From NCBI GenBank assembly GCA_025544715.1, contig GCA_025544715.1_4109.3: a stretch of DNA of 64,000 nucleotides. The stretch is one strand, 5' to 3'. A program made the position numbers and the translations under genes. Source of the stretch: Escherichia coli (GTDB lineage Bacteria; Pseudomonadota; Gammaproteobacteria; Enterobacterales; Enterobacteriaceae). Numbering within the stretch: the first letter of the stretch is position 1; each line of letters opens with the position of its first letter. Below are positions 1,408 through 60,545 of this stretch, in pieces. The notes under the pieces were generated by a model. That model saw nothing but the letters and a program-made list of their open reading frames with translations. It was not told the DNA's origin and made no database searches.

Positions 1408-1425
1408 TATATTCTCCGAAAAGAA

Positions 1426-1449: not shown

Positions 1450-1456
1450 TTTTAAA

Positions 1457-1714: not shown

Positions 1715-1745
1715 ATTGTTAAGAAGAACTTTTTGTTCTTCACAT

Positions 1746-2236: not shown

Positions 2237-2237
2237 G

Positions 2238-2639: not shown

Positions 2640-2746
2640 GATAAAATATTATACCACAACTATAACGCATATCTTATCTCTTTGTCATCAATCGATGTTC
2701 AGATACTAATAATTATATCAGTTATTGGTTTTTTGTCCCACTATTT

Positions 2747-3859: not shown

Positions 3860-3860
3860 G

Positions 3861-3983
3861 TTATTCCCCCATCAACCAATCACGTAGACGTTCCCAGAAG
3901 CCTTTTGGTTGGTATTCTGGGTATTCATATTCATCAGTGCCTTGCTCGGAAACACCCCAATCTTCTTCTAGCATAGCAATCAT
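3861..3983 (-). CDS. small acidic protein (40 aa), not in ORF track
   Basis: ATG preceded by GGAGG 5 nt upstream; MIAMLEEDWGVSEQGTDEYEYPEYQPKGFWERLRDWLMGE; fills the gap between flanking genes. Confidence 0.4.
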   Translation of the reverse strand: MIAMLEEDWGVSEQGTDEYEYPEYQPKGFWERLRDWLMGE

Positions 3984-3994
3984 AATGCCTCCAA

Positions 3995-4417
3995 TTAAAT
4001 TAATCTGTCACGTAGACGGTCGTAATATTTTTTGTGTATAGCTAGTATACACTGATATGCAGAATAGTCAATACCAAATGTATCATCAATGAACATGTAC
4101 TGATCAAGTGTTTCGGGTCCATTATCATCAACTGGTAATGTCCCTTCTTTTTTTGATAGTGTGTGCCACATCAACTCACTTTCAATATGGTGAGTTGCGT
4201 ATGTCAATTCTATCTTACTTTTTCGTAGTAAAATTAACAATTCATCATTGTCGTCGAGTGCATTACGAAATTTAATACGAACTGTACCCTGGAAATTATT
4301 AGTGTACATAACACGATGATGATTGTATGAAATCAAACCACGCCTTTCAGTACTGATTTCGTGTTCAGCAAAGTACTTTAACGTTTCATTAAATTTTGGA
4401 ATTTTAGTAACGTCCAA
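3995..4417 (-). CDS. hypothetical protein, tandem paralog A (140 aa)
   Basis: C-terminal FIDDTFGIDYSAYQ matches FIEDTFGIDFDTYQ of the adjacent ORF. Confidence 0.5.
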   Translation of the reverse strand: MDVTKIPKFNETLKYFAEHEISTERRGLISYNHHRVMYTNNFQGTVRIKFRNALDDNDELLILLRKSKIELTYATHHIESELMWHTLSKKEGTLPVDDNGPETLDQYMFIDDTFGIDYSAYQCILAIHKKYYDRLRDRLI

Positions 4418-4820
4418 TCACATAATCCTCATAAAGTTCGTATACCCTCATTATACTCTGATATGTATCAAAGTCAATACCAAAGGTATCCTCAATGAAC
4501 TGATATTGCAAAAACTCTTCCTCTGTGGCAGCAATAGGAAGAGTCCCGTTTCGTTGTTCTGGGGATTGAACATCCTCAATATACATCAACACTATACCTT
4601 CATCCAGATTTATATCTATCATAAAAACATCTTCACTATAAAATATGTTATATGTACGGATGAAGAGATTTCCTGTTCTATCATAACTTGACACGTGTGT
4701 TTCATAATACATTTTATCTAAACTAAAGAACAAACCTGTACTATCTGGCTTTTTAGTATTTTTTAATTTAATTTCGATAGCATCAATAATAGGTTTAATA
4801 TCAAACTTTTTCATAGACAA
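4404..4820 (-). CDS. hypothetical protein, tandem paralog B (138 aa)
   Basis: Paralog of 3995..4417. Confidence 0.5.
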   Translation of the reverse strand: MSMKKFDIKPIIDAIEIKLKNTKKPDSTGLFFSLDKMYYETHVSSYDRTGNLFIRTYNIFYSEDVFMIDINLDEGIVLMYIEDVQSPEQRNGTLPIAATEEEFLQYQFIEDTFGIDFDTYQSIMRVYELYEDYVIGRY

Positions 4821-5009: not shown

Positions 5010-5405
5010 TTATAAAAAGTAATTATACATTTTATTGTACAATATAAAAAGATCTTTCACATTATCATAAGTAATATCAGATACATCATGAATTAATGAT
5101 AACTGAAAAAATGAAGCTTCGTCTATTTCTGCTGGAATTATAACATCACCATCGTCTTCGTCCATTTTATTAGTGTAGTATTTTATGTGATCTACATTCA
5201 ACTCAATAGAGAACGCAATGTTGGTTTTTGTATAATCTTCAATTAATCCAATATATTGAGATTTTTCATTAATAAAAAATCCAATCCCAATACAACGGTT
5301 ATCTGTATATGGATAGTACCATCTATTAATAACTAGGTGTTCAGGTAAGTCCATATCATGTGTTGATATTAGAGATTTTACAATTTCCATCCAGGAATAA
5401 TTCAT
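5010..5405 (-). CDS. hypothetical protein (131 aa)
   Basis: ORF; GGAG RBS after upstream terminator. Confidence 0.45.
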   Translation of the reverse strand: MNYSWMEIVKSLISTHDMDLPEHLVINRWYYPYTDNRCIGIGFFINEKSQYIGLIEDYTKTNIAFSIELNVDHIKYYTNKMDEDDGDVIIPAEIDEASFFQLSLIHDVSDITYDNVKDLFILYNKMYNYFL

Positions 5406-5458: not shown

Positions 5459-5791
5459 TTACTCTTCGTTTTCTGTCAAATCATCAAGAACTGGGTGTTC
5501 TGGATGGTTTCGGCGGTGTAATTTAATGCTTTTGTCTTTACTGAATACAGTTTCCATCTTATCAAAAGATTCAACAATTGCTTTATACAAATCAGCATCA
5601 TCAGCAGTGACTGATTTACTACCAGCAGTTAAAGTTACAGCATATTGAGTTTTATGCTCTTTCTTAACATGAACACCAATGTCTAGTACTGAAGAAGTAC
5701 GGTACTTATCCAGACTTTTTGCTTCATTGTAAATAGCATCTTGGATTGCTGGAGTGATATCAACGTTGCCTTGAATATTTAGATTTAGCAT
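5459..5791 (-). CDS. hpf: ribosome hibernation factor (HPF/RaiA family) homolog
   Basis: MLNLNIQGNVDITPAIQDAI and DLYKAIVESFDKME resemble the N-terminus and helix of YfiA/HPF; strong AAGGAAGGTGA RBS. Confidence 0.6.
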   Translation of the reverse strand: MLNLNIQGNVDITPAIQDAIYNEAKSLDKYRTSSVLDIGVHVKKEHKTQYAVTLTAGSKSVTADDADLYKAIVESFDKMETVFSKDKSIKLHRRNHPEHPVLDDLTENEE

Positions 5792-6902: not shown

Positions 6903-7313
6903 TTAATCGTAGTAGGTTCTACCTACAGTTATGTGATATTTAAAGTACTTGGTTGGTAGTCCTAGTTCGTTTCTAATGTGTGTGATGAAATCATCTTCAA
7001 ATTCAATGATAAAGAATGAACCTGGATTCTTTTTATCTTTTACTATCTCAATAGAAGGATTGAACTTTATCTTTACTTTCATTCCATCGTATTTTTTCCA
7101 GAACTCTTCATGTGGTGGTACTTCACCACGCACTATACTAACATGTGCTCCCCATTGAGGATCTTTAACATCAATATGTAAATCAGTTCTGATGAAGTAC
7201 TGGTAGTATCTAACCAACTGTAATGGAAGTTGTAGTACTAACCAGAAGTCCTTCTTCTTTTTCATAGTGCCACGATCTGGATCATACACCAGAGTTCCTT
7301 CCATTTCAATCAT
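6903..7313 (-). CDS. 2H-phosphoesterase-fold protein (LigT/Acb1-like)
   Basis: Two H-x-[ST]-x motifs, HVSI at His57 and HITV at His127, about 70 residues apart; 136 aa. Confidence 0.45.
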   Translation of the reverse strand: MIEMEGTLVYDPDRGTMKKKKDFWLVLQLPLQLVRYYQYFIRTDLHIDVKDPQWGAHVSIVRGEVPPHEEFWKKYDGMKVKIKFNPSIEIVKDKKNPGSFFIIEFEDDFITHIRNELGLPTKYFKYHITVGRTYYD

Positions 7314-19631: not shown

Positions 19632-20864
19632 TTACTTATACCATTGCATTTCTCTGATATCAATGATAATTTTTGATGCTAATTTAATGTTTGGTTTTTT
19701 GGGAAGTACTGATTTCTTATATAGAACATCACGAATGTATTGTACTTTATCATCGAAATATTCTAATACTTCTTCATACTTCCACTTACCATTACGAATA
19801 TCCATCAACATTTGTGCATCAGGTCGTTTAACTTGAATAATTCCACTCTGTAATGCTTCTTCTGCACTATTCAAAAGTCTAATTGTGTGCATAGCATGTT
19901 TACAATCGTATCCGTGTTGTGATTCTAAAATAGCACGTTTGGCATTACGATTTTCTTTCCATTTATGATAACTTTTCCTATTCTCACTATTCTCCTGATA
20001 TTCTTTTTCGTTAAATTTTACAATTAGTTCTGGTTTGGTTTTCAACTCTTCAGTACTACGTTCTTTAGAAAAATAACGCAATGAACCATCATGGTTAATA
20101 GTGCTTTCATTAGGATTCTTAACAATCGCAAAAATGTTTTCTCCGTAATGAATTAGTTCATAACCATTATTAAAATTCAATAAATTGAAATCACGATCAA
20201 GAATTTTTTCAGTAGTGTAGTTATGTACTAATCTTACGAAATGATATTGCTTTAATGGATTTTTCGAAACTAACTGCAATGATGTATCACGCATATATTT
20301 TTCAAAATCAATCTTTTTAGCATTAAATGGATGTAAGTTGGATGTATCTAAACGTTCAACAAGATACTGTGGGAATGAATCATACATCCACGCAAGAACC
20401 TCATCGACAGGGTGTTCTTCTAAAATCTCATTTAATCGTTTTTCAGCAATACGCTCTTTATCCATCCAACCGTGATGATTTGTCATACGCTTAATCTGAT
20501 TATATGCATATCCAGTGTATGAAAATGCAATCTTGGAACTAAGAAGTTTTTGGTTAAATGAACGAAGATAGTCATAAATTTCAGTACTTTCAACAATGTG
20601 TTCAGGTTCAACCCAAAGTGATTCAAGAATATTAGGGTTAGCTTCAGTGTATAATTTTAAATACTGATTCAACTCATAGAATTTAGTATCTTCTTCGCTT
20701 TTATCAGCTACCTCTTTGACCTTATAGAAGGGTGTAAGAATAAATTCTTTATTAGCAAGAAAAATACCACGATAATCAGTATCACTTTCAGGTGTACTGG
20801 TTCCGTAGGCTTGTGACCCAGCCAAGTGTTTCACTATTGTTTGTTCAATATATTGGTTATTCAT
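19632..20864 (-). CDS. Pol-beta-superfamily nucleotidyltransferase domain protein (410 aa)
   Basis: N-terminal hLAGSQAYGTSTPESDTDYRGIF matches the GS-x9-13-DxD nucleotidyltransferase signature. Confidence 0.5.
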   Translation of the reverse strand: MNNQYIEQTIVKHLAGSQAYGTSTPESDTDYRGIFLANKEFILTPFYKVKEVADKSEEDTKFYELNQYLKLYTEANPNILESLWVEPEHIVESTEIYDYLRSFNQKLLSSKIAFSYTGYAYNQIKRMTNHHGWMDKERIAEKRLNEILEEHPVDEVLAWMYDSFPQYLVERLDTSNLHPFNAKKIDFEKYMRDTSLQLVSKNPLKQYHFVRLVHNYTTEKILDRDFNLLNFNNGYELIHYGENIFAIVKNPNESTINHDGSLRYFSKERSTEELKTKPELIVKFNEKEYQENSENRKSYHKWKENRNAKRAILESQHGYDCKHAMHTIRLLNSAEEALQSGIIQVKRPDAQMLMDIRNGKWKYEEVLEYFDDKVQYIRDVLYKKSVLPKKPNIKLASKIIIDIREMQWYK

Positions 20865-36920: not shown

Positions 36921-38360
36921 TTACATATTTTCTTCAGCAAATTCAGCCAGTGGTGAACGAACAACACCTTCTAGTTCGATGACACGACAACCTGCCCAGT
37001 CTTTAAACTTCTCAGTTACATAAGTCAAACCACTGTTAACTGGACTAATAAACTTACTGTCAATCTGACTCAAGTTACCCATAATTACTACTTTACAGTT
37101 TAACCCTGCTCGTGTCAAGATGGTTTTTGCTTGTGCAGGTGTAATGTTTTGGAATTCATCAACTACTAGAATAGTGTTGGTGAATGAACGTCCACGTACA
37201 AAGTTTAGTGCTTTAAATTGAATAACATTACGTTTCATAATCTCTTCAATACTACCTTGTGGGTTAGCATCATCTTTATGAAGAAACTCTAACGCATCAA
37301 TCGCGGCTCCACAGAATGGAATCACTTTTTCTGCTTCTGAACCTGGCAAGAAACCAATATCTTCAAACTGTGAGTCTTGAGTTTTAGAGAAGATGATTCG
37401 GTCGTATTTACGTTTTTCCAGTACTAATTCCAATGCAGTAGCAATCGTAATTAGTGTTTTACCAGTACCAGCAGAACCTAGCAGTACTGTTAGATGTACA
37501 TCAGGATCGAGAATACTGTTGATAGCGAGTGCTTGTTGGATATTCTTTGCTTTAATATCCCATACTTTAGCACGTAAAGCCACTGATTGTCCAATGTCTT
37601 GGAATACCAAAATATCTTCTGGTGTTAGTGTTCCATCATCTTCCTCAATTGCTGATTGTCCTTCGTACACAAATAATACGTCAGCATCATCATATAGGTA
37701 ATCACCGATGCATAGATTTTGTGGAAGCAGATGTTCAATCAAGCTTTTAGAAATGTAATGATACAAACGACGACCAACTTGTTCGGATTGAATATTAGTA
37801 TTGGTTAAGTTGCTGTATACTTCCCAAAAATTGATTTCCAGATGGTGTTGACCAATGTGAATCAAATCACTATCACCAATAACAATATCATGGCGATAAT
37901 CTTGTACCTCGACACCATAACTTAGTGCTTTGATACGCATGTTGATATCACGAGTTACCAGTACTGATTCTGTTGCTAAAGCTACCAGAATGATTTTATC
38001 ATCAGGTACAGTACTTTTGAGAAGGGTTTGAACTTTCTCTTCTGTACCTTTAGTACGAATTAGTGCCTCAGCTTCTTCGTTTGTAATAACAAACAATTTG
38101 CTATCAGGATTCATATTGGTATGAACATCAGCAATATTAACACCAGTACTACTAATCTCGTCATGTGATGCATCTGCAATAATTGCTTCAATGTTACGAA
38201 TAGCAACACGTGCATCGCGTGAAACATCTACATTACGACTCTTAATCGAATCTAATTCTTCCAGTACTGTAAATGGTAGAATGATTGCAGCACCATCAAA
38301 AGCAATAGATGCATTAGGGTCAGATAGTAGTACGTTTGTGTCAATTGTATATTTTTTCAT
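36921..38360 (-). CDS. phoH: PhoH-like ATPase with N-terminal PIN domain
   Basis: N-terminal PIN-like IDTNVLL...D, Walker A GSAGTGKT, 479 aa. Confidence 0.8.
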   Translation of the reverse strand: MKKYTIDTNVLLSDPNASIAFDGAAIILPFTVLEELDSIKSRNVDVSRDARVAIRNIEAIIADASHDEISSTGVNIADVHTNMNPDSKLFVITNEEAEALIRTKGTEEKVQTLLKSTVPDDKIILVALATESVLVTRDINMRIKALSYGVEVQDYRHDIVIGDSDLIHIGQHHLEINFWEVYSNLTNTNIQSEQVGRRLYHYISKSLIEHLLPQNLCIGDYLYDDADVLFVYEGQSAIEEDDGTLTPEDILVFQDIGQSVALRAKVWDIKAKNIQQALAINSILDPDVHLTVLLGSAGTGKTLITIATALELVLEKRKYDRIIFSKTQDSQFEDIGFLPGSEAEKVIPFCGAAIDALEFLHKDDANPQGSIEEIMKRNVIQFKALNFVRGRSFTNTILVVDEFQNITPAQAKTILTRAGLNCKVVIMGNLSQIDSKFISPVNSGLTYVTEKFKDWAGCRVIELEGVVRSPLAEFAEENM

Positions 38361-38420
38361 AAAACATCCTTGAGTTATGAGTACATCCTTGTACTCGACT
38401 AATGTTATTGACTCGGATTA

Positions 38421-38723
38421 TTACATATTTGGTTCGTATTCAACATAGCAACGTGAACCTCGAACCTTTTCTTCCCAGCACTCCTGGTAAACAAGTTGAC
38501 CAATTGAAACTGGTTCTCTTGATAGTCCATTACGTACTTCACCACTTTGGGTTTTATACATGAATGAACATTTGGACTCGCTACATTGTCCTAAACTAAC
38601 AACTTCTGCGGTATTGTAGTGAATGTTGGTACGCTTAGTGTTCTCGTGATACTGTCCGAACCAAAGAACTCCTGCACCTAACAGAACAGTACAAATAAGA
38701 CTTTTAATGTGTGTTTGAATCAT
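38421..38723 (-). CDS. exported/membrane-anchored protein (100 aa)
   Basis: N-terminal hydrophobic segment; Cys-rich. Confidence 0.45.
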   Translation of the reverse strand: MIQTHIKSLICTVLLGAGVLWFGQYHENTKRTNIHYNTAEVVSLGQCSESKCSFMYKTQSGEVRNGLSREPVSIGQLVYQECWEEKVRGSRCYVEYEPNM

Positions 38724-39040
38724 AATGCGTTAAATCCATTGTTTAAGTATGTTTCAATATTAATTTTACCAACAGGATTACTACTGTGAACAAAGTACTC
38801 AAACGGTTCTTTAATATTATTATCAAACATATAATCAATAAGAAACTTAGCAAAAGAATATCCAGTCTTTTCGTCTTCGCTCACATCACCCAAGTCATGG
38901 TCGAATGATACAAATGCTGGAATTCCATTTTCAATAACATATTCACATGCACTTTTAAAGTCACGACATACCACCATATCTTGGTTTGGATAATATAGAT
39001 TTGCATCACGAATATCATCCAAAAACATTGAGTAAGACAT
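38720..39040 (-). CDS. hypothetical protein (106 aa), co-transcribed with Nudix/Sir2
   Basis: ORF overlapping upstream gene by 4 nt; no motif recognised. Confidence 0.45.
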   Translation of the reverse strand: MSYSMFLDDIRDANLYYPNQDMVVCRDFKSACEYVIENGIPAFVSFDHDLGDVSEDEKTGYSFAKFLIDYMFDNNIKEPFEYFVHSSNPVGKINIETYLNNGFNAL

Positions 39041-39049
39041 GTTAAACTC

Positions 39050-39601
39050 CTATAGATAACTAATTAGTAAGTTTTCTTTTTGAACCAGATACTCCAATTC
39101 TTGTTTTGCTGTACCGATGAAGTTCTGTGTCATAAGATTATTATATCCCGCTTCTCGATTTTGTCCCTTAGAATAACGAGAAATATGACATAAATTTACA
39201 CCAGCAACTTCAGCACTCGCATGTTTAGCATTAGTGTATCCATCTCTAATGTGTTTCAACTCGTCATAGCTTACTTCATAGCTAAAACTATGACTGTTTG
39301 CACCTGGGTAAATTTCAAAAGTTTTGAGTGGTCGGAGATGGGAAACAAAAATATTGTAATCCATTTCTTCTTGAACTTCACGACGCAATGCATCTTCTAA
39401 TGAGATATCAGTACTTTCTACGGTTCCACCACATCCACCAAGAAGACCATCCCATCGTAATTGTAGTAAAACTAAATTTACTTCTGGTATATCATTCAAC
39501 TCATAGTTTTTGTAAGGGTTGCATTTTCTTGCAAAGAAATAACAAAATACAAAATTTGCACGTGAGCCATATTCACCAAAGGGAACTTCTTTAACACTCA
39601 T
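39050..39601 (-). CDS. Nudix hydrolase (183 aa)
   Basis: Nudix box GGCGGTVESTDISLEDALRREVQEEM; ATGA overlap with Sir2 gene. Confidence 0.55.
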   Translation of the reverse strand: MSVKEVPFGEYGSRANFVFCYFFARKCNPYKNYELNDIPEVNLVLLQLRWDGLLGGCGGTVESTDISLEDALRREVQEEMDYNIFVSHLRPLKTFEIYPGANSHSFSYEVSYDELKHIRDGYTNAKHASAEVAGVNLCHISRYSKGQNREAGYNNLMTQNFIGTAKQELEYLVQKENLLISYL

Positions 39602-40356
39602 TTCATACGTTCCTTAATTATAGTCTCTAGATGTGGTATTGCTTTGGTTGCTGGCTTGATAACTTTTTCATTAAACAAAAAATCATTATCATTTTTACGA
39701 ATGTTAACATTAACACTATAACATGGCAATGCTGCTGCTAATCTCGACCATACCAGTACTGTATCGCTACTACCAATTACAATAACTGTATCATTTTCAT
39801 TAAGAGATTTCAACACATTATTTCGTTCTTCGTAAATTGGTAAGCGAATACCATCAACATAACGATGATATTCTCCAATCATTACTACATTTGGTTTAGC
39901 AAAAACATCATGCTTTGGTATGTATGGTTCGTATCCGCAGTTAATAACATTATAATCATCGGAATTAATACTATAATTTTCAATAACTTCGCACAAGTTT
40001 CCATGAAGTTTAAGCTCATGACCACCAATACGAGTATAAAGATCATCCATGTTAGAAGTCATATGAAGGAAGCAATCACCATATTGATCTTCTAACGATT
40101 TTATAAAATAATGCATTGCATTGGGTTCGCATTGTCCCAATTTTACACGTAATGTATTATAGAAGGAATGAACAACGTGATATTTTGTAGTTAAACTAGC
40201 AATGTTACATACATCATTAATTTTAAATGTATCCCACAAACCATCATCAAATCGAAAAGGTTCCATACCACTTTCAACGGAAAGTCCTGCACCTGATATA
40301 ATCAGTAATCGTTTTTTACCTTCATTGCTTATAAATTTTTCTGATATCATATTCAA
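39598..40356 (-). CDS. Sir2-family (sirtuin-fold) NAD-binding protein
   Basis: ISGAGLSVESGMEPFR (GAGIS..SG.P.FR) and SNMDDLYTRIGGHELKLHG (NxDxL...LHG catalytic His); no zinc-ribbon CxxC pairs seen. Confidence 0.6.
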   Translation of the reverse strand: MNMISEKFISNEGKKRLLIISGAGLSVESGMEPFRFDDGLWDTFKINDVCNIASLTTKYHVVHSFYNTLRVKLGQCEPNAMHYFIKSLEDQYGDCFLHMTSNMDDLYTRIGGHELKLHGNLCEVIENYSINSDDYNVINCGYEPYIPKHDVFAKPNVVMIGEYHRYVDGIRLPIYEERNNVLKSLNENDTVIVIGSSDTVLVWSRLAAALPCYSVNVNIRKNDNDFLFNEKVIKPATKAIPHLETIIKERMK

Positions 40357-40359
40357 TCC

Positions 40360-40554
40360 TTATAAAAAACCAATTAAATATATTGATAATAACAGAATGA
40401 TTCCAATATGATAGGCATACATAAAATTATTATCTTTGTGATAACCTTTGGATGTCAAGTCCCTATATAAGCATTTAGCATTGTTATAAATTACAACAAT
40501 AGAAAAAACTATAAAAAAACTCAAAACCCATTCATAAATTGTGTATGCCATCAT
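40360..40554 (-). CDS. small two-TM membrane protein (64 aa)
   Basis: Two hydrophobic helices. Confidence 0.4.
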   Translation of the reverse strand: MMAYTIYEWVLSFFIVFSIVVIYNNAKCLYRDLTSKGYHKDNNFMYAYHIGIILLLSIYLIGFL

Positions 40555-40572: not shown

Positions 40573-41169
40573 TTAATACTTTAAAACATCAAACTCTGCA
40601 CTTACACTAGTTACATTATCACTGACAATTTTAAAAATTGATTTGATGCGTTCATGTAGTGGTACTTTTGATTCATTCTCAACTTCAATATATGCTTGCA
40701 TTGCTGCAATAGCATGATATGTCCCGCTACCTACGGCTGTGATTCGTGTTTTCGGTTGAAGAACTGAAAAATCTTCTTGAACTTCATAAATTGTATGATT
40801 GTGGAGAATGATGAACTGACCACCACCTACTTCTTGTGAAGGATCACGAGAACCCCATTCCTCTTTGAACATTTGACGAATAATAGGAATAACTTTCAGT
40901 ACTAAGTACTGTGGGAACGTCTCATTGGCATCTTGCTGTGGTAGATTCAAACTGTAAGTAAGAAGTTGACCCATACGGAATGATGTGGTGTAACCAATCG
41001 CCATAATTTCTTTTGTACGGGTCAAACCAGCATCATCATTGATTTTAATGAATTCTTTCTCAAATACTTTAGGCTCAGTTTGAACTGATTTTGTGAAACC
41101 ATTACTTCCTAGTTTGTCCCCTGCAATAAAAGAAGTTACACCATCAGTGTGTGCAATGATACATGTCAT
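40573..41169 (-). CDS. HslV/proteasome-beta-like Ntn-hydrolase peptidase
   Basis: MTCIIAHTDG...IAGDK and ITAVGSGTYHAIAAMQAY resemble HslV TTIVSV...IAGDGQ and IAIGSGG.YA.AAARAL; start re-assigned to ATG giving N-terminal Thr (ATGA overlap with upstream stop; track 41238). Confidence 0.55.
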   Translation of the reverse strand: MTCIIAHTDGVTSFIAGDKLGSNGFTKSVQTEPKVFEKEFIKINDDAGLTRTKEIMAIGYTTSFRMGQLLTYSLNLPQQDANETFPQYLVLKVIPIIRQMFKEEWGSRDPSQEVGGGQFIILHNHTIYEVQEDFSVLQPKTRITAVGSGTYHAIAAMQAYIEVENESKVPLHERIKSIFKIVSDNVTSVSAEFDVLKY

Positions 41170-41426
41170 AAAATAGCTCCAATTGCAAATAAAGTTGTAT
41201 ATAAAATATAAATCAATGTACCTAATAACATTAGACACACCAAATATGATGTTGCCAGAACATAATAAATTATTGCTTCAAACTTTGAATTGAACTTCAT
41301 TGTTGTGTTATCAATAAAGCCATTTTTGTAATCTTTGTAAATGAAAACTGTTAGGAAAAGTACAGTAATATACATCACTACTGTAGCATAAAAAATAATA
41401 GATGTCAAATTTTGGATGTTTGTCAT
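41166..41426 (-). CDS. membrane protein (86 aa)
   Basis: Multiple hydrophobic helices. Confidence 0.4.
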   Translation of the reverse strand: MTNIQNLTSIIFYATVVMYITVLFLTVFIYKDYKNGFIDNTTMKFNSKFEAIIYYVLATSYLVCLMLLGTLIYILYTTLFAIGAIL

Positions 41427-41496: not shown

Positions 41497-42105
41497 TTAT
41501 TGGTTTACTGATCCATATCGGATTAGTTCAGTTTTTGTCAAGATAACAACATCTTCACCACGAGAACGGCTAACTTTATATAGAACGTCTGGTGGAATTC
41601 CATTTGCAGAATATAGTGTAAATAGAAAACCTACTTTAGTTGCCATTTCTTCAGTAAAAGTTGATAGCTGCCTAACTGATACAAAAGAATTATCACCGTC
41701 TTTAACATTACTTTTAATAGAAATGTTATGAAGTCCCAGTACTGAGCGATTTATCATGTATCGCTTTTCAAAAGCTACACTAAAGAATACCACAGTACAT
41801 GCTGAGTTGCAATACCTAGAAACAATTAAATTTATACCATTGTCTCTAACGAAGTTTGCCATTTTAATTCCAGCATCAAAATCACCACCTGGTGATGTGA
41901 TTGTAATGGTATCATAGTGTTCTTTATCATACAACTCCATCATACGCTTGAGTGATCCATCTGTAATATCTGAGATGAAATATACATTACGTGTTTCTGG
42001 ATTGTACTTTATCACATTTTTACGTTCAACACCAGCACTGGCTGGAAAATTTATCAACATCAGAAGCATTACTGCTTGTACTACCTCAAGCCATAGTCTT
42101 TTCAT
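41497..42105 (-). CDS. secreted ClpP/S49-fold serine-peptidase-like protein
   Basis: Signal peptide MKRLWLEVVQAVMLLMLINFPASAG; ITSPGGDFDAGIKMANF resembles the ClpP/SppA SPGG serine motif; AAGGA RBS. Confidence 0.45.
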   Translation of the reverse strand: MKRLWLEVVQAVMLLMLINFPASAGVERKNVIKYNPETRNVYFISDITDGSLKRMMELYDKEHYDTITITSPGGDFDAGIKMANFVRDNGINLIVSRYCNSACTVVFFSVAFEKRYMINRSVLGLHNISIKSNVKDGDNSFVSVRQLSTFTEEMATKVGFLFTLYSANGIPPDVLYKVSRSRGEDVVILTKTELIRYGSVNQ

Positions 42106-51085: not shown

Positions 51086-52288
51086 TTATAGATAATACTT
51101 TCCAATATAAAGTGGATTACTAATTGATAGTTGAACGTGACACGGCTTATCTTGGTAGTAACGAGAACTTGATGTTTTGCGTTCATTTGGTGGGAAGAAT
51201 GGTGAACGATAACCGTTCCATGTACTAAATGATGTGTGCTCATTAATATCAACATCCATTGACATAATTCCATTATCATCAATTTGAACTGGGTATGCAC
51301 TAAAGCGTTCAAATTTATCATTATAATGAATATTATAATCCCCGCTACGTCCATAATAACTACGTGTTGTATTATTACTTACACCAAAAAATACGCGATA
51401 AGATTGTTCATTATCTTTAGTCATAAATGGTACGTTCTCGTTGAAACGTCCATTATTCATAAGATCATCAACATTTATTTCTTCATATTTAATTTTTAGG
51501 TCTTTTGCTTTAAATGATTTATTGTGTACCAGTACTGGAATGTTAGATTCACCTAATGGGTTATGTCTGTTTGTTCTATAGCTTTGCCAAAATTCATTAG
51601 CAAGTTTAATTTCTTCATCTGCCGTAGTCTTCTTATTCAAGAGTGCACGAGGTTCCAGATTGTAATTATCCAAACGTTGATTCAATGCATAAGTTCCACG
51701 AGTACTGTTATAAAGTAAATGATAAACAGAACTTTTGTCGGGGTATGCAAATTCTTTAGTTTTCTTTATACAAATTGCATGTACTTTACCGCAGTAATAG
51801 TAATCTTCTTTGAGATACGTGAAGCCATCACCAACTTTAAGACCTGCTACAGTTTCTTTTTGTTGTTCTTTTTTATTTTCTTTTTCAACTAACTTAGCAA
51901 ATGTTTTTGTTTTACCATTAATTAATTCTAAGTTATTGTTGAAAAACATTGGGTCTACAAAAACACCTTTGATTATATCGTTATTGATAATTAAATCATT
52001 CATGTTTTTGGCACTAATCATAAATTCAAATCCTTCTGGGTGACGGATTGTGAAATATGTTTCTCGTGCATGAATTGTTAATTTATCAACTACACAAAAT
52101 CCAGTAGTTGGAACGTTGTCAATATATAACGATGGAAGATTGTTCTTCTTTGCCCAGTACTCTGCTCTCTCTTTCTTTGTTTCAAACGCTTTTGTATGTG
52201 ATTTTGTTGCATCGATAATAAAACCATCAACTTGGTTGTGGTTTACATAGGAACGTGCAACAAATAACTTCTCTGGAAAATCCATCAA
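51086..52288 (-). CDS. hypothetical protein (400 aa)
   Basis: Long ORF; no motif recognised. Confidence 0.5.
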   Translation of the reverse strand: MMDFPEKLFVARSYVNHNQVDGFIIDATKSHTKAFETKKERAEYWAKKNNLPSLYIDNVPTTGFCVVDKLTIHARETYFTIRHPEGFEFMISAKNMNDLIINNDIIKGVFVDPMFFNNNLELINGKTKTFAKLVEKENKKEQQKETVAGLKVGDGFTYLKEDYYYCGKVHAICIKKTKEFAYPDKSSVYHLLYNSTRGTYALNQRLDNYNLEPRALLNKKTTADEEIKLANEFWQSYRTNRHNPLGESNIPVLVHNKSFKAKDLKIKYEEINVDDLMNNGRFNENVPFMTKDNEQSYRVFFGVSNNTTRSYYGRSGDYNIHYNDKFERFSAYPVQIDDNGIMSMDVDINEHTSFSTWNGYRSPFFPPNERKTSSSRYYQDKPCHVQLSISNPLYIGKYYL

Positions 52289-52704
52289 ATAGTCCTCATT
52301 GTACTGATTGCTTTTAGTGTGTCAAACAATGCACCATATTTTACTTGCATTAGTTGATCACCCGCAGGAAGATTCATACGCATAACAGCCATGTCTTCAA
52401 TCATTTCAGACGTACACAGTACTGCTACACAGGTAATAGCATCATTTAATCCAGCTTCATTGAATTTGGCAAAAGGAACTTTTCCCTGTTTGCTAAGGTT
52501 GTTATAATAAGAATTTAATTTATCATGTCCACCAGCATTTAGTACTACAATAGTTTCGTGTTCATAGTACCATTCATCAATAATAGTACTGAAAGCAGTA
52601 CCTTCATATTCTTTAATTAGTTTAACACCAGCATGGAATGCTTGAATACCAGCTTGGACACCTTGACAGTACATATTAGTTAAGCAATACAATTTCATTT
52701 CCAT
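52285..52704 (-). CDS. hypothetical protein (139 aa)
   Basis: ORF. Confidence 0.45.
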   Translation of the reverse strand: MEMKLYCLTNMYCQGVQAGIQAFHAGVKLIKEYEGTAFSTIIDEWYYEHETIVVLNAGGHDKLNSYYNNLSKQGKVPFAKFNEAGLNDAITCVAVLCTSEMIEDMAVMRMNLPAGDQLMQVKYGALFDTLKAISTMRTI

Positions 52705-57373: not shown

Positions 57374-58306
57374 TTAGAAATTTCCTTCTGCAACTTGAAA
57401 AACTTTCAAGCCAAGTAGTTTACGCCACATGAATACAACTTGATCGCGGTCATCATAAACCTTTTTAACATCGTAATGATCAACCACATTTTTCATGTAC
57501 AGGTCGAATTTTACAACATCATCGGGACGTTTATCATCGATGTCTCGCATAAACAATGCATCGTAAGGAACACCCCAATTCTTAAGCCACTGTTCGGTAT
57601 CAGCACGACACCCTTCAGTACGCCCACTCATGACGATAATCTTGCGTTTATGAAAAACTGCTTCAGCGATAATAGACAAAATAACTTCTTCATCTGGTGT
57701 ATCCTGAAGAACAGTACTTTCATCGTAAGGATTACGACCCCATTTATGAGCAAGAGTACCGTCAATATCAACGATAACAGCAGCTTCTCGTGAATTACCA
57801 TAGTAACCAATGTGCATGGCCTTACTATAATAGTACGTATCTGCCATAGTGTCAATGATATTATCTTGTACAGAACGCTCACGCATGAGGTTACGTTTCT
57901 TACAAAGTTTTACGAACTCTTTAATCTTAAAGAAAACATGAACATCTGCACCACGATCTTCATTCGGTACAAAATCTTCGTAGAAGTTCTTTTCTTTGTA
58001 GTCGTATTCATTATCTTTAGCCCAACGTTTCCATTCATCACGGAAATGTTGTTTAAGGTTCGTATCGGACACAATGATGTTCCAACCATTCTCTGCTGCT
58101 GAATTTGCTGCACTGAACTGCATTTTAGTTACGTACTGCTCATTAGCGTCGTTGAATTTGTATGCATCATGTGACCCAGCCATAGATTCACGAATATCAT
58201 CACGGTTGATGTTGATAGTCTTTGATTTGGCATTTTTAATTTCTTGAACTGCCCATGTAGTTTTACCACAACCAGGCAACCCAACTGTTAGTGTAATAGT
58301 TGGCAT
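57374..58306 (-). CDS. pseT: polynucleotide 5'-kinase/3'-phosphatase
   Basis: Walker A GLPGCGKTT, phosphatase DxDGT motif IVDIDGTLA; overall similarity to T4 Pnk. Confidence 0.85.
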   Translation of the reverse strand: MPTITLTVGLPGCGKTTWAVQEIKNAKSKTININRDDIRESMAGSHDAYKFNDANEQYVTKMQFSAANSAAENGWNIIVSDTNLKQHFRDEWKRWAKDNEYDYKEKNFYEDFVPNEDRGADVHVFFKIKEFVKLCKKRNLMRERSVQDNIIDTMADTYYYSKAMHIGYYGNSREAAVIVDIDGTLAHKWGRNPYDESTVLQDTPDEEVILSIIAEAVFHKRKIIVMSGRTEGCRADTEQWLKNWGVPYDALFMRDIDDKRPDDVVKFDLYMKNVVDHYDVKKVYDDRDQVVFMWRKLLGLKVFQVAEGNF

Positions 58307-59402: not shown

Positions 59403-60545
59403 CTAAAAATCCTTTAGTACAATTTTCATGTATTTTATAAGAGTCTCTTTGTAATCAACTTTCTTATTGTTATACATTGCAAAGGCCAAGCCCTGACGAT
59501 TCAGTTCATTAGTTAAACACTCCTGAACCTTCATTGCGAATTCCTTTCGCTCCAAGTGCTTGTGTTCCTTGACGAAGCTTTCTACTTCATCTTGTAATGC
59601 ATTATAGCACGAAAATACCAATTGTTCCATTCTTAATATCTTTTGCATAGCATATTCATCAGTACTGAACAATTGTTTTAAATCATCACTTGAACCATTT
59701 AATACGGCTTCATATAAATGAGAATCAATAATAATACTATCTTTTGTAAGATGTAATGAACTGTACCAGTCAGTCTTTATTTTACACATTGTTCCATTAT
59801 TTAGGATGCACACAAAACCCTCAATATCAAGCATTTTATGAACTTCCTCCACGCTTTCACGGAAGGTATTTCGTACCGGAAAAGTGTGATGAATATCTTT
59901 TCCTGTCATATTAGTACTGTACTGTGCAAGACATGGAAACTTATCACGTAGTGCTTTACCACATAGCAACTCACCACTCACACGATGTCGAACGTTCAGT
60001 ACAAACAGTTGTTCTACCTGATATGGTAATACAATTCGGTACTCTGGGCTTGTATACTCCATATTAACTGTGTAACCTAAACGTTCCGCTTCGTCGATGT
60101 ACTGATACAAATTCTGGTTCTCGTTAATAAGTCGAGTACTGTTAATCGCATGGTCAGAATACAATGCAGTATGTGATTTACAACGAATCTCACCATCATT
60201 ATCACGATAAGTACTGATGATCGAACCATCCAACTTAGGCATAACTACCGCAATGTCATCGCATGTGGTGTTAGCAGGGAACATTGTAGCAGGATTCTCG
60301 TAAGCATTAAAGAACTTTTTCATTGTACGTGCTGCACAACGTATCATGTCACCTTCTTCATCAATTTCCCACATAGAGCCACGGGTTTCCAACGCATTTG
60401 GTTGCATGAAATCAGTGTATGATGCTAGACGATAACTGAATACACGATACGTACCACCAGCAGGACTTTTATGATCCACATAAAAGAACGCATCGTTTGT
60501 ATTACATAAGTGCATTAAATCTTCATATATTTGCAAAAGGGTCAT
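59403..60545 (-). CDS. rnlA: RNA ligase 1
   Basis: Adenylation motif KLDGS and N-terminal similarity to T4 RnlA (GGTYRVFSY, ETRG, KFFN). Confidence 0.85.
   Translation of the reverse strand: MTLLQIYEDLMHLCNTNDAFFYVDHKSPAGGTYRVFSYRLASYTDFMQPNALETRGSMWEIDEEGDMIRCAARTMKKFFNAYENPATMFPANTTCDDIAVVMPKLDGSIISTYRDNDGEIRCKSHTALYSDHAINSTRLINENQNLYQYIDEAERLGYTVNMEYTSPEYRIVLPYQVEQLFVLNVRHRVSGELLCGKALRDKFPCLAQYSTNMTGKDIHHTFPVRNTFRESVEEVHKMLDIEGFVCILNNGTMCKIKTDWYSSLHLTKDSIIIDSHLYEAVLNGSSDDLKQLFSTDEYAMQKILRMEQLVFSCYNALQDEVESFVKEHKHLERKEFAMKVQECLTNELNRQGLAFAMYNNKKVDYKETLIKYMKIVLKDF

What the first reader, a model, noticed from the sequence alone, without database searches (positions are those of the whole stretch)
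38720..40356. Sir2-like / Nudix / small-ORF operon, with macro domain and 2H-phosphoesterase elsewhere
Three overlapping co-oriented genes encode a sirtuin-fold protein with GAGLS..SG..PFR and a catalytic-His LHG motif, a Nudix hydrolase with a canonical Nudix box, and an unassigned 106-aa protein. With the macro-domain gene (931..1407), a second Nudix (2238..2639) and the 2H-phosphoesterase candidate (6903..7313), the phage carries an unusual set of NAD+/ADP-ribose/nucleotide-signal enzymes. Bacterial Sir2 domains act as NADases in several defence systems, so a phage-borne Sir2 with a Nudix partner suggests counter-defence or host NAD manipulation.
Basis: partly seen in the sequence, partly recalled or inferred. 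Interest (0 to 1): 0.65.

Follow-up and report, generated by a model that had tools for sequence, protein, structure and literature searches.

The report
Phage sirtuin–Nudix–cREC NAD/ADP-ribose gene module
A jumbo E. coli phage carries a tightly packed trio of genes (a zinc-less sirtuin, a NUDT16-like Nudix hydrolase and a "cREC" receiver-fold enzyme) that is real and conserved, but it was already annotated and described computationally as a probable NAD-dependent RNA-repair module, and its function has never been tested.

Summary
The window is a 121Q/PBECO4-type Asteriusvirus jumbo phage (98.7% identity). It encodes, on the minus strand, a sirtuin (39598..40350), a Nudt16-like Nudix (39050..39601) and a 106-aa protein. 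That third protein is not unassigned: it belongs to Pfam cREC_REC (E=1.5e-22). A membrane protein and a PIN-PhoH gene follow. The macro, second Nudix and 2H-like genes also check out.

The sirtuin is a CobB/SIRT5-like fold that has lost all four zinc cysteines. It has no match to defence-system models, so the analogy to defence Sir2 NADases is not supported.

The five-gene core is invariant in three Rak2-like jumbo-phage genera, and Nudix and cREC are fused in some. In unrelated phages the same zinc-less sirtuin clade sits beside RNA ligase 1, cREC and a kinase (rV5-like), or a Swiss-army-knife RNA-repair phosphatase (T5).

This neighbourhood was described by Iyer et al. 2022 as a predicted NAD-dependent RNA-repair system with the sirtuin as a Tpt1/KptA analogue. 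I found no experimental test.

New caveat: sister phages place an Acb1-family (anti-CBASS) gene and NAMPT/NMNAT directly upstream, which keeps a counter-defence reading alive.

Verdict: real, already known, function open, moderate interest.

The parts
39598..40350 (-). Zinc-less class III (CobB/SIRT5-like) sirtuin, 250 aa from ATG 40350. The ORF can also be read from TTG 40356.
   Evidence: Family: Pfam SIR2 E=3.7e-20; phrog_2162 E=2e-77. Structure: nearest solved sequences and folds are E. coli CobB; AF2 pLDDT 91.8. Residues: GAGLS, FR, N/D and the catalytic His are invariant, while all four Zn-ribbon Cys are lost across the phage clade. No PADLOC hit. AGGA RBS before ATG 40350.
39050..39601 (-). 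Nudt16-like Nudix hydrolase, 183 aa. Its start overlaps the Sir2 stop by 4 nt.
   Evidence: Pfam Nudt16-like E=1.3e-18 and NUDIX E=7e-7; phrog_9999 E=8e-91. Solved relatives are X29/NUDT16, E about 1e-12. REVQEE at residues 74-79. It is fused to cREC in CBB and in P0182.
38720..39040 (-). cREC (cyclic-phosphate-processing receiver) domain protein, 106 aa.
38421..38723 (-). 100-aa protein with an N-terminal TM helix. Its start overlaps the cREC stop by 4 nt. Conserved member of the gene string, function unknown.
   Evidence: phrog_14661 E=4e-44; hydropathy. A gene annotated as membrane protein holds the same position in CBB and RaK2.
36921..38360 (-). PIN-PhoH protein (PIN nuclease domain plus PhoH ATPase), 479 aa. 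Conserved downstream neighbour.
   Evidence: Pfam PhoH E=7e-44 and PIN_4 E=8e-20. Same position in CBB, RaK2, L099 and IMG/VR loci L018-L024.
40360..40554 (-). 64-aa two-TM ORF directly upstream of Sir2. Probably a real small membrane protein; whether it belongs to the module is unknown.
   Evidence: The reading frame is kept, with many substitutions, in Turkey3 (79% DNA identity). Annotated in ph0011 but not in 121Q.
931..1407 (-). Macro domain protein. Candidate ADP-ribose-1''-phosphate phosphatase or ADP-ribose hydrolase.
   Evidence: Solved macrodomains 2fg1/2afc E about 1e-15; Poa1p 6lfu E=9e-7. phrog_335 E=1e-45. The Pfam Macro hit is only 16.4 bits.
2238..2639 (-). Second Nudix hydrolase, annotated NudE nudix hydrolase in 121Q.
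   Evidence: Pfam NUDIX E=1.1e-12; phrog_1185 E=5e-47; 121Q annotation.
6903..7313 (-). Probable 2H phosphoesterase (2H-SAK-like). Not an Acb1 family member.
   Evidence: Pfam 2H-SAK 25.6 bits, cutoff 27. Motifs HVSI at 57 and HITV at 127. No similarity to the Acb1-like genes of sister phages.
57374..58306 (-). T4-type polynucleotide kinase-phosphatase (Pnkp). Possible partner in RNA repair.
   Evidence: Pfam HAD_PNKP E=8e-44 and AAA_33 E=4e-14.
59403..60545 (-). T4-type RNA ligase 1. Possible partner in RNA repair.
   Evidence: Pfam RNA_lig_T4_1 E=9e-16 and T4_Rnl1_C E=7e-17.

Best explanation
The sirtuin, Nudix and cREC genes form one NAD+-consuming module whose most likely job is clean-up of damaged RNA ends. 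This is the model Iyer et al. proposed in 2022.

Shown here:
- The three genes are tightly packed and co-directional; the junctions are a 4-nt overlap and a 9-nt gap.
- Each keeps an intact set of family-defining active-site residues.
- The sirtuin has a canonical NAD-binding sirtuin fold but no zinc site.
- cREC has a receiver fold with conserved Asp, His and Ser residues.
- Nudix and cREC are fused into one polypeptide in sister phages.
- In unrelated phages the same sirtuin clade and cREC lie beside RNA ligase, polynucleotide kinase and RNA-repair phosphatases.

Inferred pathway:
1. A host nuclease cuts tRNA or mRNA, leaving 2',3'-cyclic phosphate ends.
2. cREC, and/or the 2H enzyme, opens the cyclic phosphate to a 2'-phosphate.
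3. Kinase and Rnl1 seal the break.
4. The sirtuin then does what Tpt1/KptA does. [quoted passage not shown]
5. cREC opens that by-product, the macro protein removes the phosphate, and the Nudt16-like Nudix splits the ADP-ribose pyrophosphate to AMP plus ribose phosphate.
For: - Gene packing and family calls.
- Active-site conservation: sirtuin G22/G24/S26, F34/R35, N102/D104 and H118 in the 252-aa numbering; cREC D8, D9, R11, D47, H48, D49, S86 and N88; Nudix REVQEE.
- Nudix-cREC fusion in CBB_121 and P0182.
- Vequintavirinae phages: Metallophos, Rnl1, cREC, AAA_33 kinase and Sir2 in a row in PVP-SE1 and KpS11; pEp_SNUABM_01 shows phosphoesterase, Rnl1 and an ATPase upstream of Sir2, but no cREC was detected there. 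This mirrors fungal Trl1 (ligase plus kinase plus cyclic phosphodiesterase) followed by Tpt1.
- T5: Sir2 is followed by HAD_SAK_2, an RNA-repair phosphatase.
- cREC is translationally coupled to Rnl2, with Rnl1, a kinase and Metallophos nearby, in a T4-like contig.
- Of 73 non-Rak2-like IMG/VR cREC loci, 19 have an RNA ligase and 34 have at least one RNA-repair-type gene within 6 kb.
- The window itself encodes Pnkp, Rnl1, an RlaP nucleotidyltransferase, a CCA-adding enzyme, a Poa1p-like macro protein and a 2H-like protein.
- Loss of the Zn ribbon in all phage lineages fits an altered substrate-binding small domain.
- The published prediction is the same.
Against: - No biochemical or genetic test exists for any component.
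- The phage already has a complete T4-type Pnkp/Rnl1 pathway, which never creates a 2'-phosphate (established T4 biochemistry).
- The sirtuin is acidic (pI 5.85), unlike the typically basic Tpt1 (my recollection, not checked here).
- Several acyl-lysine tunnel positions are conserved or conservatively replaced, e.g. the Val of 'PNVV' and the Ile of QNID (Met here); Skliros et al. reported the same for the Vibrio homologue.
- In 3 of 6 phage lineages examined (phi92-like, Vibrio schizoT4-like, 7-11) the Sir2 neighbours show no RNA-repair family.
- Immediate cREC neighbours are heterogeneous, and I ran no matched control for the 6-kb enrichment.
- None of the 73 non-Rak2-like cREC loci has a Sir2.
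- The '2H' gene next to Sir2 in sister phages is an Acb1-family member, a family known for anti-CBASS activity rather than RNA repair.
- Relatives of the Nudix are fused to Ham1/ITPase or HD domains, not to ADP-ribose enzymes.
- Synteny within Rak2-like phages may simply reflect shared ancestry.
Confidence: 0.38

Rival explanations
1. Counter-defence against nucleotide or NAD-derived immune signalling. The module belongs to an anti-immunity 'NAD island'. The Nudt16-like Nudix and cREC would degrade host ADP-ribose-derived or cyclic-phosphate-bearing signal molecules, or the products of Acb1-type cleavage. The sirtuin would consume or transfer ADP-ribose from NAD+ to inactivate a host factor or signal. 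This is.
For: - In sister Rak2-like phages a Pfam Acb1 member (56-58 bits) lies directly upstream of Sir2: CBB_118, L018-L024 and L099.
- Acb1 is an experimentally proven anti-CBASS enzyme that works through a cyclic-phosphate intermediate.
- NAMPT and NMNAT-type genes (the NARP2-type NAD reconstitution enzymes) lie 0.5-5 kb upstream in RaK2, CBB, BF and L099. In Vequintavirinae, PVP-SE1 has NAMPT plus PRPP synthetase near the cluster, and KpS11 and pEp_SNUABM_01 have PRPP synthetase.
- Iyer et al. 2021/2022 also consider cREC, Nudix and macro domains as degraders of soluble ADP-ribose signals.
Against: - This window's lineage has neither the Acb1 nor the NAMPT neighbour: ClpP-like and HslV-like genes sit there instead, and no 121Q-type record is among the 45 best NAMPT hits.
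- The sirtuin is not of the defence-type SIR2 family.
- An NAD-consuming enzyme is an odd weapon for a phage that needs NAD+.
- Thoeris gcADPR signals have glycosidic links, not cyclic phosphates (my recollection; one abstract seen describes them as glycocyclic ADPR).
- This reading does not explain the RNA ligase, kinase and HAD-SAK linkage in rV5-like and T5 phages.
Confidence: 0.24
2. Host-protein deacylase. The phage sirtuin acts like CobB, removing acetyl or succinyl groups from host or phage proteins (for example activating acetyl-CoA synthetase) to retune metabolism. The Nudix and macro proteins would dispose of the O-acyl-ADP-ribose by-product.
For: - The closest sequence and fold matches are E. 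coli CobB and SIRT5.
- The catalytic His and NAD-site residues are conserved.
- The YxxR anion-binding motif of CobB/SIRT5 is kept in T5, rV5-like, Vibrio and phi92-like homologues.
- Skliros et al. 2016 proposed this role for Vibrio phage Sir2, reporting a conserved acetyl-lysine tunnel and transcription peaking 20 min post infection.
- Nudix and macro enzymes are known to process O-acetyl-ADP-ribose (for macro; Nudix from established knowledge).
Against: - All four Zn ligands of the small domain, which helps form the peptide-binding cleft in characterised sirtuins, are lost.
- NCBIfam CobB models score 85-93 bits against cutoffs of 243-320, so this is not a CobB equivalog.
- In the 121Q subclade the YxxR arginine is shifted by one residue and the CobB 'VYP' substrate loop is not conserved.
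- This reading gives cREC no role and explains neither the Nudix-cREC fusion nor the RNA-repair neighbours.
Confidence: 0.18
3. RNA 5'-end (cap) metabolism. The Nudt16-like Nudix would remove NAD, ADP-ribose or other nucleotide-metabolite caps from host or phage RNA, as mammalian NUDT16 does. The sirtuin would convert NAD-capped RNA ends, and cREC would process the resulting phosphates. Alternatively the Nudix is simply an IDP/ITP house-cleaning enzyme unrelated to its neighbours.
For: - The Nudix is specifically of the NUDT16/X29 decapping family.
- Family members are fused to, or sit near, Ham1/ITPase, which matches the IDP-ase activity I recall for human NUDT16.
- As I recall (established knowledge), reviews describe NUDT16 acting on non-canonical caps and on ADP-ribosylated nucleic acids; papers on these topics were listed but not read.
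Against: - There is no direct evidence.
- Among phage records the Nudix is confined to Rak2-like jumbo phages plus four Aeromonas phages. In every Rak2-like neighbourhood examined it lies between Sir2 and cREC and is sometimes fused to cREC, which argues that it works with them.
- The Aeromonas LAh_9 context is uninformative.
Confidence: 0.1

Closest known systems
Type-1 phage sirtuin-centred 'NAD+-utilizing RNA-repair' neighbourhood of Iyer, Burroughs, Anantharaman and Aravind 2022 (Viruses 14:1977; prototype Serratia phage BF); cREC defined in Iyer et al. 2021 (Viruses 13:63)
   Same: Same clade of jumbo phages. Same sirtuin, Nudix, cREC and PIN-PhoH string, with Nudix and cREC fused in BF and CBB.
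   Different: In this window Nudix and cREC are separate genes. The adjacent 2H (Acb1-type) gene of BF and CBB is absent; the only 2H-like gene here belongs to another branch (2H-SAK-like) and lies about 31 kb away. The paper's model is a prediction only.
E. coli CobB and human SIRT5 (class III sirtuin protein deacylases)
   Same: Best sequence match (E about 3e-22) and best fold match (TM 0.77-0.86). GAGxS, FR, N/D and the catalytic His are conserved.
   Different: All four Zn-ribbon cysteines are lost. Gln of TQN[IV]D is replaced by Ser/Ala/Thr. There is a clade-specific VCN motif and a roughly 12-aa insert after 'GE'. Scores lie far below the NCBIfam CobB cutoffs.
Fungal/plant tRNA ligase pathway: Trl1 (ligase, kinase, 2H cyclic phosphodiesterase), Tpt1/KptA, Cpd1 and Poa1p
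   Same: Proposed working analogy: cyclic phosphodiesterase (cREC or 2H), kinase, Rnl1-type ligase, an NAD-dependent 2'-phosphate remover, then clearance of Appr>p by a cyclic phosphodiesterase and a macro phosphatase. The window's macro protein matches Poa1p at E about 1e-6. The Tpt1 mechanism is summarised in PMC11417386.
   Different: No homology to Tpt1: this is a sirtuin Rossmann fold, not an ART fold. cREC is a receiver fold, not 2H. The activity has not been demonstrated.
NUDT16 / Xenopus X29 (U8 snoRNA decapping; as I recall also IDP hydrolysis, ADP-ribose and NAD-cap removal)
   Same: Pfam Nudt16-like, above its cutoff. The alignment runs almost end to end, and the Nudix box has the same extended spacing with SLE(D/E)xLxRExxEE.
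   Different: Roughly 30% identity or less. Phage-borne, and sometimes fused to cREC. Substrate unknown.
Acb1 (anti-CBASS 2H phosphodiesterase, Hobbs et al. 2022) and NARP2 (NAMPT plus NMNAT NAD+ reconstitution)
   Same: These validated counter-defence families are the immediate upstream neighbours of the same Sir2-Nudix-cREC string in sister Rak2-like phages.
   Different: Neither is adjacent to the module in this window, and no Acb1-like ORF was found anywhere in its 64 kb. NAMPT was not searched for in the window itself; no 121Q-type record appears among the 45 best NAMPT hits. No homology to the three genes themselves.
Defence-system SIR2 NADases (ThsA, DSR1/2, SIR2-HerA, SIR2-Ago)
   Same: Same superfamily and the same NAD+ substrate. 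Those domains also lack the Zn ribbon (my recollection, not tested here).
   Different: No PADLOC model is hit. The best matches are canonical deacylase sirtuins, not defence SIR2 domains. No sensor or partner domain is present.

Membership tests
Sirtuin superfamily (Pfam SIR2 PF02146) | Profile match above the curated cutoff | tested here: met
   73.1 bits against cutoff 24, covering profile positions 1-178 of 180.
Sirtuin superfamily (Pfam SIR2 PF02146) | NAD-site residues (GAGxS, FR, N..D) and the catalytic His | tested here: met
   G22, G24, S26, N102, D104 and H118 are invariant and F34/R35 near-invariant in 23 sequences.
Sirtuin superfamily (Pfam SIR2 PF02146) | Sirtuin fold: Rossmann large domain plus small domain | tested here: met
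   AF2 pLDDT 91.8; Foldseek TM 0.77-0.86 to CobB.
Canonical protein-deacylase sirtuins (CobB/SIRT5 type) | Four-cysteine zinc ribbon in the small domain | tested here: not met
   The cysteines are absent in this protein and in all phage lineages aligned, but present in the cellular outgroups. Also noted by Skliros 2016.
Canonical protein-deacylase sirtuins (CobB/SIRT5 type) | NCBIfam CobB equivalog score | tested here: not met
   85-93 bits against cutoffs of 243-320.
Canonical protein-deacylase sirtuins (CobB/SIRT5 type) | NAD-dependent lysine deacylase activity | not testable with these tools
   Needs an enzyme assay.
Defence-type SIR2 NADase effectors | Match to a model of a known defence system | tested here: not met
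   No PADLOC hit at E<=0.1.
Nudix hydrolases, Nudt16-like subfamily (PF22327) | Profile match above the curated cutoff | tested here: met
   67.9 bits against cutoff 27; NUDIX 29.7 bits against 21.1.
Nudix hydrolases, Nudt16-like subfamily (PF22327) | Catalytic REUxEE core of the Nudix box | tested here: met
   R74-E75-V76-Q77-E78-E79; aligned with RELxEE of X29/NUDT16.
Nudix hydrolases, Nudt16-like subfamily (PF22327) | Canonical GX5EX7REUXEEXGU spacing | tested here: not met
   There are 11 rather than 7 residues between E62 and R74, and G is replaced by D at the 'xGU' position. The longer spacing matches NUDT16/X29.
cREC (Pfam cREC_REC PF20274) | Profile match above the curated cutoff | tested here: met
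   80.5 bits against cutoff 27.
cREC (Pfam cREC_REC PF20274) | Conserved acidic/His/Ser constellation (DD..R, FDHDL, HSxNP) | tested here: met
   D8, D9, R11, D47, H48, D49, S86 and N88 are invariant and H85 near-invariant in 44 sequences. All are present here.
cREC (Pfam cREC_REC PF20274) | Receiver (CheY-like) fold | tested here: met
cREC (Pfam cREC_REC PF20274) | Cyclic-phosphate phosphodiesterase activity | not testable with these tools
   This is predicted only, by Iyer et al. 2021/2022. No solved structure or assay was found.
Iyer et al. 2022 type-1 sirtuin RNA-repair neighbourhood | [quoted passage not shown] | tested here: met
   The genes run contiguously at 36921..40350.
Iyer et al. 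2022 type-1 sirtuin RNA-repair neighbourhood | Linked 2H phosphoesterase | tested here: not met
   No 2H gene is adjacent. The Acb1-type 2H of CBB, BF and L099 is absent from the 64-kb window. A 2H-SAK-like candidate lies about 31 kb away.
Tpt1/KptA RNA 2'-phosphotransferase (as a functional class) | Homology to the Tpt1 (ART-superfamily) fold | tested here: not met
   The fold is a sirtuin Rossmann fold. Any equivalence would be analogy, not membership.
Tpt1/KptA RNA 2'-phosphotransferase (as a functional class) | NAD+-dependent transfer of an RNA 2'-phosphate, yielding Appr>p and nicotinamide | not testable with these tools
   Needs biochemistry or tpt1-delta complementation.
Macro domain (931..1407) | Homology to solved macrodomains | tested here: met
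   2fg1/2afc E about 1e-15; 5e3b E=8e-12; Poa1p E=9e-7. The Pfam Macro hit itself is below cutoff.
2H phosphoesterase (6903..7313) | Two HxS/T motifs and a profile match | tested here: inconclusive
   HVSI at 57 and HITV at 127 are present. Pfam 2H-SAK scores 25.6 bits, just under cutoff 27, and covers only the C-terminal 50 residues. No solved relative by sequence.
NARP2-type NAD+ reconstitution (NAMPT plus NMNAT) | NAMPT and NMNAT genes next to the module | tested here: not met
   They are present in RaK2, CBB, BF and L099. In this window the genes upstream of Sir2 are a small TM ORF, an HslV-like gene and a ClpP-like gene.

The most novel reading that the evidence does not exclude
The zinc-less phage sirtuin clade (T5, rV5-like, Rak2-like and others; 987 phage records) would be a non-homologous replacement of Tpt1/KptA: an NAD+-dependent RNA 2'-phosphotransferase built on a sirtuin scaffold. 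cREC would be a new class of metal-independent cyclic phosphodiesterase built on a receiver-domain scaffold. Together with a NUDT16-like Nudix they would form a complete phage-encoded pathway that heals 2'-phosphate and cyclic-phosphate RNA ends and clears the ADP-ribose by-product. The idea has already been proposed in print but never tested.
Probability: 0.3. Interest if true: 0.8.

Novelty: already known. Interest (0 to 1): 0.38.

Why it matters
If the RNA-repair model is right, sirtuins would gain a new reaction class, with a phosphate rather than an acyl-lysine as the acceptor. Receiver domains would gain an enzymatic role outside two-component signalling. A gene present in nearly a thousand sequenced phages, including the classic phage T5, would finally have a function.

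If the counter-defence reading is right instead, the module would add to the catalogue of phage tools against NAD- and nucleotide-based immunity, next to Acb1 and NARP2.

In either case the sequence finding itself is not new. The genes are annotated in GenBank relatives, cREC is a Pfam family, and the neighbourhood and its predicted role were published in 2021-2022. The open question is experimental, and tractable phages such as T5 make it directly testable.

Tried and rejected
- Defence-system models (PADLOC): no hit for Sir2 or cREC, so the defence-Sir2 analogy was dropped.
- Promoter scan: the best sigma-70-like site (40458..40429) lies inside the conserved 64-aa ORF, and its -35 is not conserved even in 121Q. 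The overall count (38) is within about 1.6 sd of the shuffles. I rejected it as an operon boundary.
- Sequence search of solved structures with cREC and with the 2H candidate: nothing usable.
- Literature searches for experimental work on cREC, phage sirtuins or a phage Nudt16-like Nudix: only the two Aravind-lab analyses and the 2016 Vibrio-phage transcript/modelling paper. The NARP3 paper turned out to be unrelated.
- Sir2 neighbours in phi92-like, Vibrio schizoT4-like and 7-11 phages: no Pfam families detected, so there is no support there for either model.
- Unbiased Pfam scan of 120 immediate cREC neighbours: heterogeneous and mostly unannotatable. The RNA-repair link shows only at the scale of a few kb.
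- Cluster-name look-up for distant Nudt16-like relatives: no names. The Aeromonas LAh_9 Nudix context is uninformative.
- Similarity between the window's 2H candidate and the Acb1-like genes: none.
- I could not inspect model coordinates, so surface charge and the substrate cleft of the sirtuin model were not analysed.

Full report
**Identity of the window.** A 3.5-kb stretch around the finding is 98.7% identical to Escherichia phage 121Q and 94-96% identical to PBECO4, SP27, phAPEC6 and other Asteriusvirus jumbo phages of roughly 310-385 kb. The RefSeq record for 121Q already names gp476 'Sir2 (NAD-dependent deacetylase)' and gp477 'nudix hydrolase'; gp478 is 'hypothetical', gp479 'membrane protein' and gp480 'PhoH-like'.

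**Checking the observation.** The three ORFs are present on the minus strand.
- The sirtuin matches Pfam SIR2 (E=3.7e-20) and phrog_2162 (E=2e-77).
- The second protein matches Pfam Nudt16-like (E=1.3e-18) and NUDIX (E=7e-7).
- The sirtuin most likely starts at ATG 40350 behind an AGGA ribosome-binding site, not at TTG 40356.
- Sir2 and Nudix overlap by 4 nt. Nudix and cREC are 9 nt apart, with a GGAG overlapping the stop codon. cREC overlaps a 100-aa membrane-protein gene by 4 nt, and a PIN-PhoH gene follows 60 nt later.
- The Nudix box is the NUDT16/X29 variant: REVQEE is intact, but the upstream G/E lie four residues further away than in the canonical motif.

The genes named elsewhere in the window also hold up.
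- The macro protein is weak in Pfam but matches solved macrodomains at E about 1e-15 and yeast Poa1p, an ADP-ribose-1''-phosphate phosphatase, at E about 1e-6.
- The second Nudix is clear.
- The 2H candidate scores just under the Pfam 2H-SAK cutoff and has two HxS/T motifs.

**The sirtuin.**
- Its nearest solved relatives by sequence are bacterial CobB entries, including E. coli CobB 1s5p (E about 1e-22), followed by archaeal Sir2 and SIRT5.
- A high-confidence AlphaFold model (pLDDT 91.8) superimposes best on CobB (TM 0.77-0.86), then on archaeal Sir2, SIRT5 and other canonical sirtuins.
- It hits no PADLOC defence model.
- It scores far below the NCBIfam CobB cutoffs.
- In the large protein database its relatives form a tight clade down to 43% identity, followed by a sharp drop to cellular CobB-like proteins.
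- Within that clade the NAD-site residues and the catalytic His are invariant, but all four zinc-ribbon cysteines are gone, the Gln of TQN[IV]D is replaced, and there is a clade-specific insert.
- tblastn finds homologues in 987 phage records, including T5-like, rV5-like, phi92-like, Vibrio schizoT4-like, 7-11 and Rak2-like phages. Representatives of all of these share the zinc-less small domain and a common VCN...GY...KPNVVxFGE signature.
- The zinc loss, a conserved acetyl-lysine tunnel and a deacetylase hypothesis were already published for the Vibrio phage homologue, with transcript timing as the only experimental datum.

**The Nudix.** It belongs to the NUDT16/X29 family. It is much more narrowly distributed than the other two proteins.
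- There are 13 clusters, all at 56% identity or more, in the word-indexed search.
- There are 75 phage records: about 71 Rak2-like jumbo phages plus four Aeromonas phages.
- A sensitive search finds 241 distant representatives. Among the 20 long ones, one is fused to cREC, two to HD domains and one to a Ham1 ITPase.
- The family as a whole is therefore not dedicated to ADP-ribose. Only its jumbo-phage branch is tied to cREC and Sir2.

**The cREC protein.**
- It carries every invariant residue of a 44-sequence alignment: D8, D9, R11, D47, H48, D49, S86 and N88, with H85 near-invariant.
- No solved structure or experimental study exists.

**Gene context, tested independently.** Within Rak2-like phages the core string Sir2 - Nudt16-like Nudix - cREC - membrane protein - PIN-PhoH is invariant in Asteriusvirus (this window), Alcyoneusvirus (RaK2) and Mimasvirus (CBB), even though the sirtuins are only 43-60% identical. 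In CBB, Nudix and cREC are one 299-aa polypeptide. Because these phages are broadly syntenic, that conservation is weak evidence on its own. The fusion is stronger.

Independent lineages are more informative.
- In Vequintavirinae (PVP-SE1, KpS11) the order is metallophosphatase - RNA ligase 1 - cREC - AAA_33 kinase - Sir2 - DNA ligase. pEp_SNUABM_01 has a similar row, but no cREC was detected there.
- In T5 the next gene after Sir2, about 320 nt downstream, is a HAD_SAK_2 'Swiss-army-knife' RNA-repair phosphatase.
- In a T4-like contig cREC is translationally coupled to RNA ligase 2, with Rnl1, a kinase and a metallophosphatase nearby. In a Malaciobacter genome it follows a metallophosphatase.
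- Of 80 IMG/VR cREC loci, seven are Rak2-like. Of the other 73, 19 have an RNA ligase within 6 kb and 34 have at least one ligase, Pnkp, kinase, metallophosphatase, RlaP or CCA-adding gene. None has a Sir2.

Limits of this evidence:
- Several of those loci are near-duplicates, and I ran no matched control.
- The immediate flanking genes are heterogeneous and mostly unannotatable.
- In phi92-like, Vibrio and 7-11 phages the Sir2 neighbours show no recognisable family.
- Taken together, the RNA-repair association is real but moderate.

The window itself encodes T4-type Pnkp and Rnl1, an RlaP nucleotidyltransferase, a PTH2-like protein and a CCA-adding enzyme.

**What is already published.** Iyer et al. 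2021 defined cREC and predicted that it is a cyclic-phosphate or cADPR-processing enzyme. Iyer et al. [quoted passage not shown] They also described the rV5/Mydo and T5-like (SP15) variants. They proposed that this distinct sirtuin clade removes RNA 2'-phosphates in the manner of KptA, with the partner enzymes resolving cyclic phosphates or degrading ADPr>P. My analysis reproduces their contextual observations. I found no experimental follow-up.

**A caveat that I did not find in the passages I read of that work.** A metagenomic relative (L099, Nudix 47% identical) has the order NMNAT-Nudix ... NAMPT ... Acb1 - Sir2 - ORF - Nudt16-like - cREC - PIN-PhoH.
- The gene directly upstream of Sir2 in CBB (CBB_118), in L099 and in all seven IMG/VR Rak2-like loci is a bona fide Pfam Acb1 member, at 56-58 bits against a cutoff of 27.
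- Acb1 is the experimentally proven anti-CBASS 2H phosphodiesterase, and it acts through a cyclic-phosphate intermediate.
- NAMPT lies 0.5-5 kb upstream of Sir2 in RaK2, K64-1, BF, CBB and EJP2. NAMPT and/or PRPP synthetase also lie near the Vequintavirinae cluster.
- The module thus sits, in sister lineages, inside what looks like an NAD/anti-signalling island. The '2H' that helped motivate the RNA-repair reading belongs to a family known for counter-defence.
- In this window's lineage those neighbours are replaced by ClpP-like and HslV-like protease genes plus a small two-TM ORF. No 121Q-type phage appears among the 45 best NAMPT matches.

**Mechanism and weighting.** I commit to the NAD-dependent RNA end-repair model as the single most likely explanation, at about 0.38.
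- It is the only model that gives all three proteins a role.
- It explains the Nudix-cREC fusion as two successive steps on one small-molecule by-product.
- It fits the ligase - cREC - kinase - Sir2 row in rV5-like phages, which parallels Trl1 plus Tpt1.
- It is chemically natural: in both sirtuins and Tpt1 a nucleophile attacks NAD+ C1'', and the ribose 2''-OH then attacks the adduct.

Against it:
- There is no assay.
- The sirtuin is acidic.
- Several acyl-lysine tunnel positions are conserved or conservatively replaced.
- The phage already has a complete Pnkp/Rnl1 pathway that never makes a 2'-phosphate.
- Sister phages have Acb1 and NARP2-type neighbours.

The rivals are counter-defence signal degradation (about 0.24), CobB-like host-protein deacylation with by-product clearance (about 0.18) and RNA cap or nucleotide house-cleaning (about 0.10).

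**Verdict.** The feature is real, intact and conserved, but it is already annotated and already interpreted in the literature. The defence-Sir2 analogy was not supported, and the third gene was overlooked. Interest is moderate: the sequence adds nothing new, yet the underlying question, what a sirtuin present in about a thousand phage genomes does, remains open and directly testable.

Noticed in passing
window 40360..40554 (-): A 64-aa ORF with two predicted TM segments ends 3 nt before the Sir2 ribosome-binding site. It is unannotated in 121Q. Its reading frame is intact, despite many substitutions, in Turkey3 (79% DNA identity), and it is annotated in ph0011. It is probably a real small membrane protein.
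   Followed up: partly
window 3995..4417, 4404..4820 and 5010..5405 (-): Three tandem ORFs of about 131-140 aa with no Pfam hit. The first two share a C-terminal 'GTLP...FI(D/E)DTFGID(Y/F)..YQ' motif, so they look like tandem paralogues of unknown function.
   Followed up: no
L003 7273..7719 (CBB_118); L099 3366..3815; L018-L024 at about 3.8-4.4 kb: A Pfam Acb1 (anti-CBASS 2H) family gene lies directly upstream of Sir2 in the CBB-, BF- and GAP32-type jumbo phages. CBB_118 is annotated 'structural protein'. If that annotation reflects virion proteomics, the enzyme may be packaged and injected.
   Followed up: partly
L101 (RaK2) 644..4302; L003 2640..5847; L099 1..2866: NAMPT and NMNAT-type (cytidylyltransferase-like, with a Nudix domain in L099 and by annotation in CBB) NAD-salvage genes lie just upstream of the Sir2 module in other Rak2-like genera. 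They are missing from this window, and no 121Q-type record is among the 45 best NAMPT hits. This suggests the Asteriusvirus lineage lost them or replaced them with ClpP-like and HslV-like protease genes.
   Followed up: partly
window 40573..41238 and 41497..42105 (-): An HslV-like peptidase (phrog_1040) and a ClpP-like protease (phrog_26024; weak Pfam CLP_protease hit) sit immediately upstream of the module. These are phage-encoded, protease-like genes of unknown role.
   Followed up: no
window 57374..58306, 59403..60545, 19632..20864, 52285..52704, 2747..3859 and 5459..5791 (-): A dense RNA and translation maintenance kit: T4-type Pnkp, Rnl1, an RlaP (RNA-repair pol-beta family) nucleotidyltransferase, a PTH2-like peptidyl-tRNA hydrolase, a CCA-adding enzyme and an HPF/RaiA homologue (the last by position and the 121Q annotation only).
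   Followed up: partly
L008 4207..4530; L009 4229..4552: In two marine phage contigs a second, divergent cREC-like ORF (107 aa; E about 1e-9 to 1e-10 against my cREC HMM) lies two genes upstream of the cREC gene, with a ClpS gene between them.
   Followed up: no
P0181-P0330 set; L100 1570..2247: Distant Nudt16-like relatives include one fusion to Ham1/ITPase and two to HD_4. A Ham1-like gene lies 3 kb upstream of a Nudt16-like gene in L100. This hints that the ancestral role of the family is clean-up of non-canonical purine nucleotides, as I recall for human NUDT16 (IDP hydrolysis).
   Followed up: no
L003 7731..7973 (CBB_119): An 80-aa 'phage zinc binding domain' protein (PF23903, E=6e-17) lies between the Acb1-like gene and Sir2 in CBB-type phages. 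It is absent from this window.
   Followed up: no
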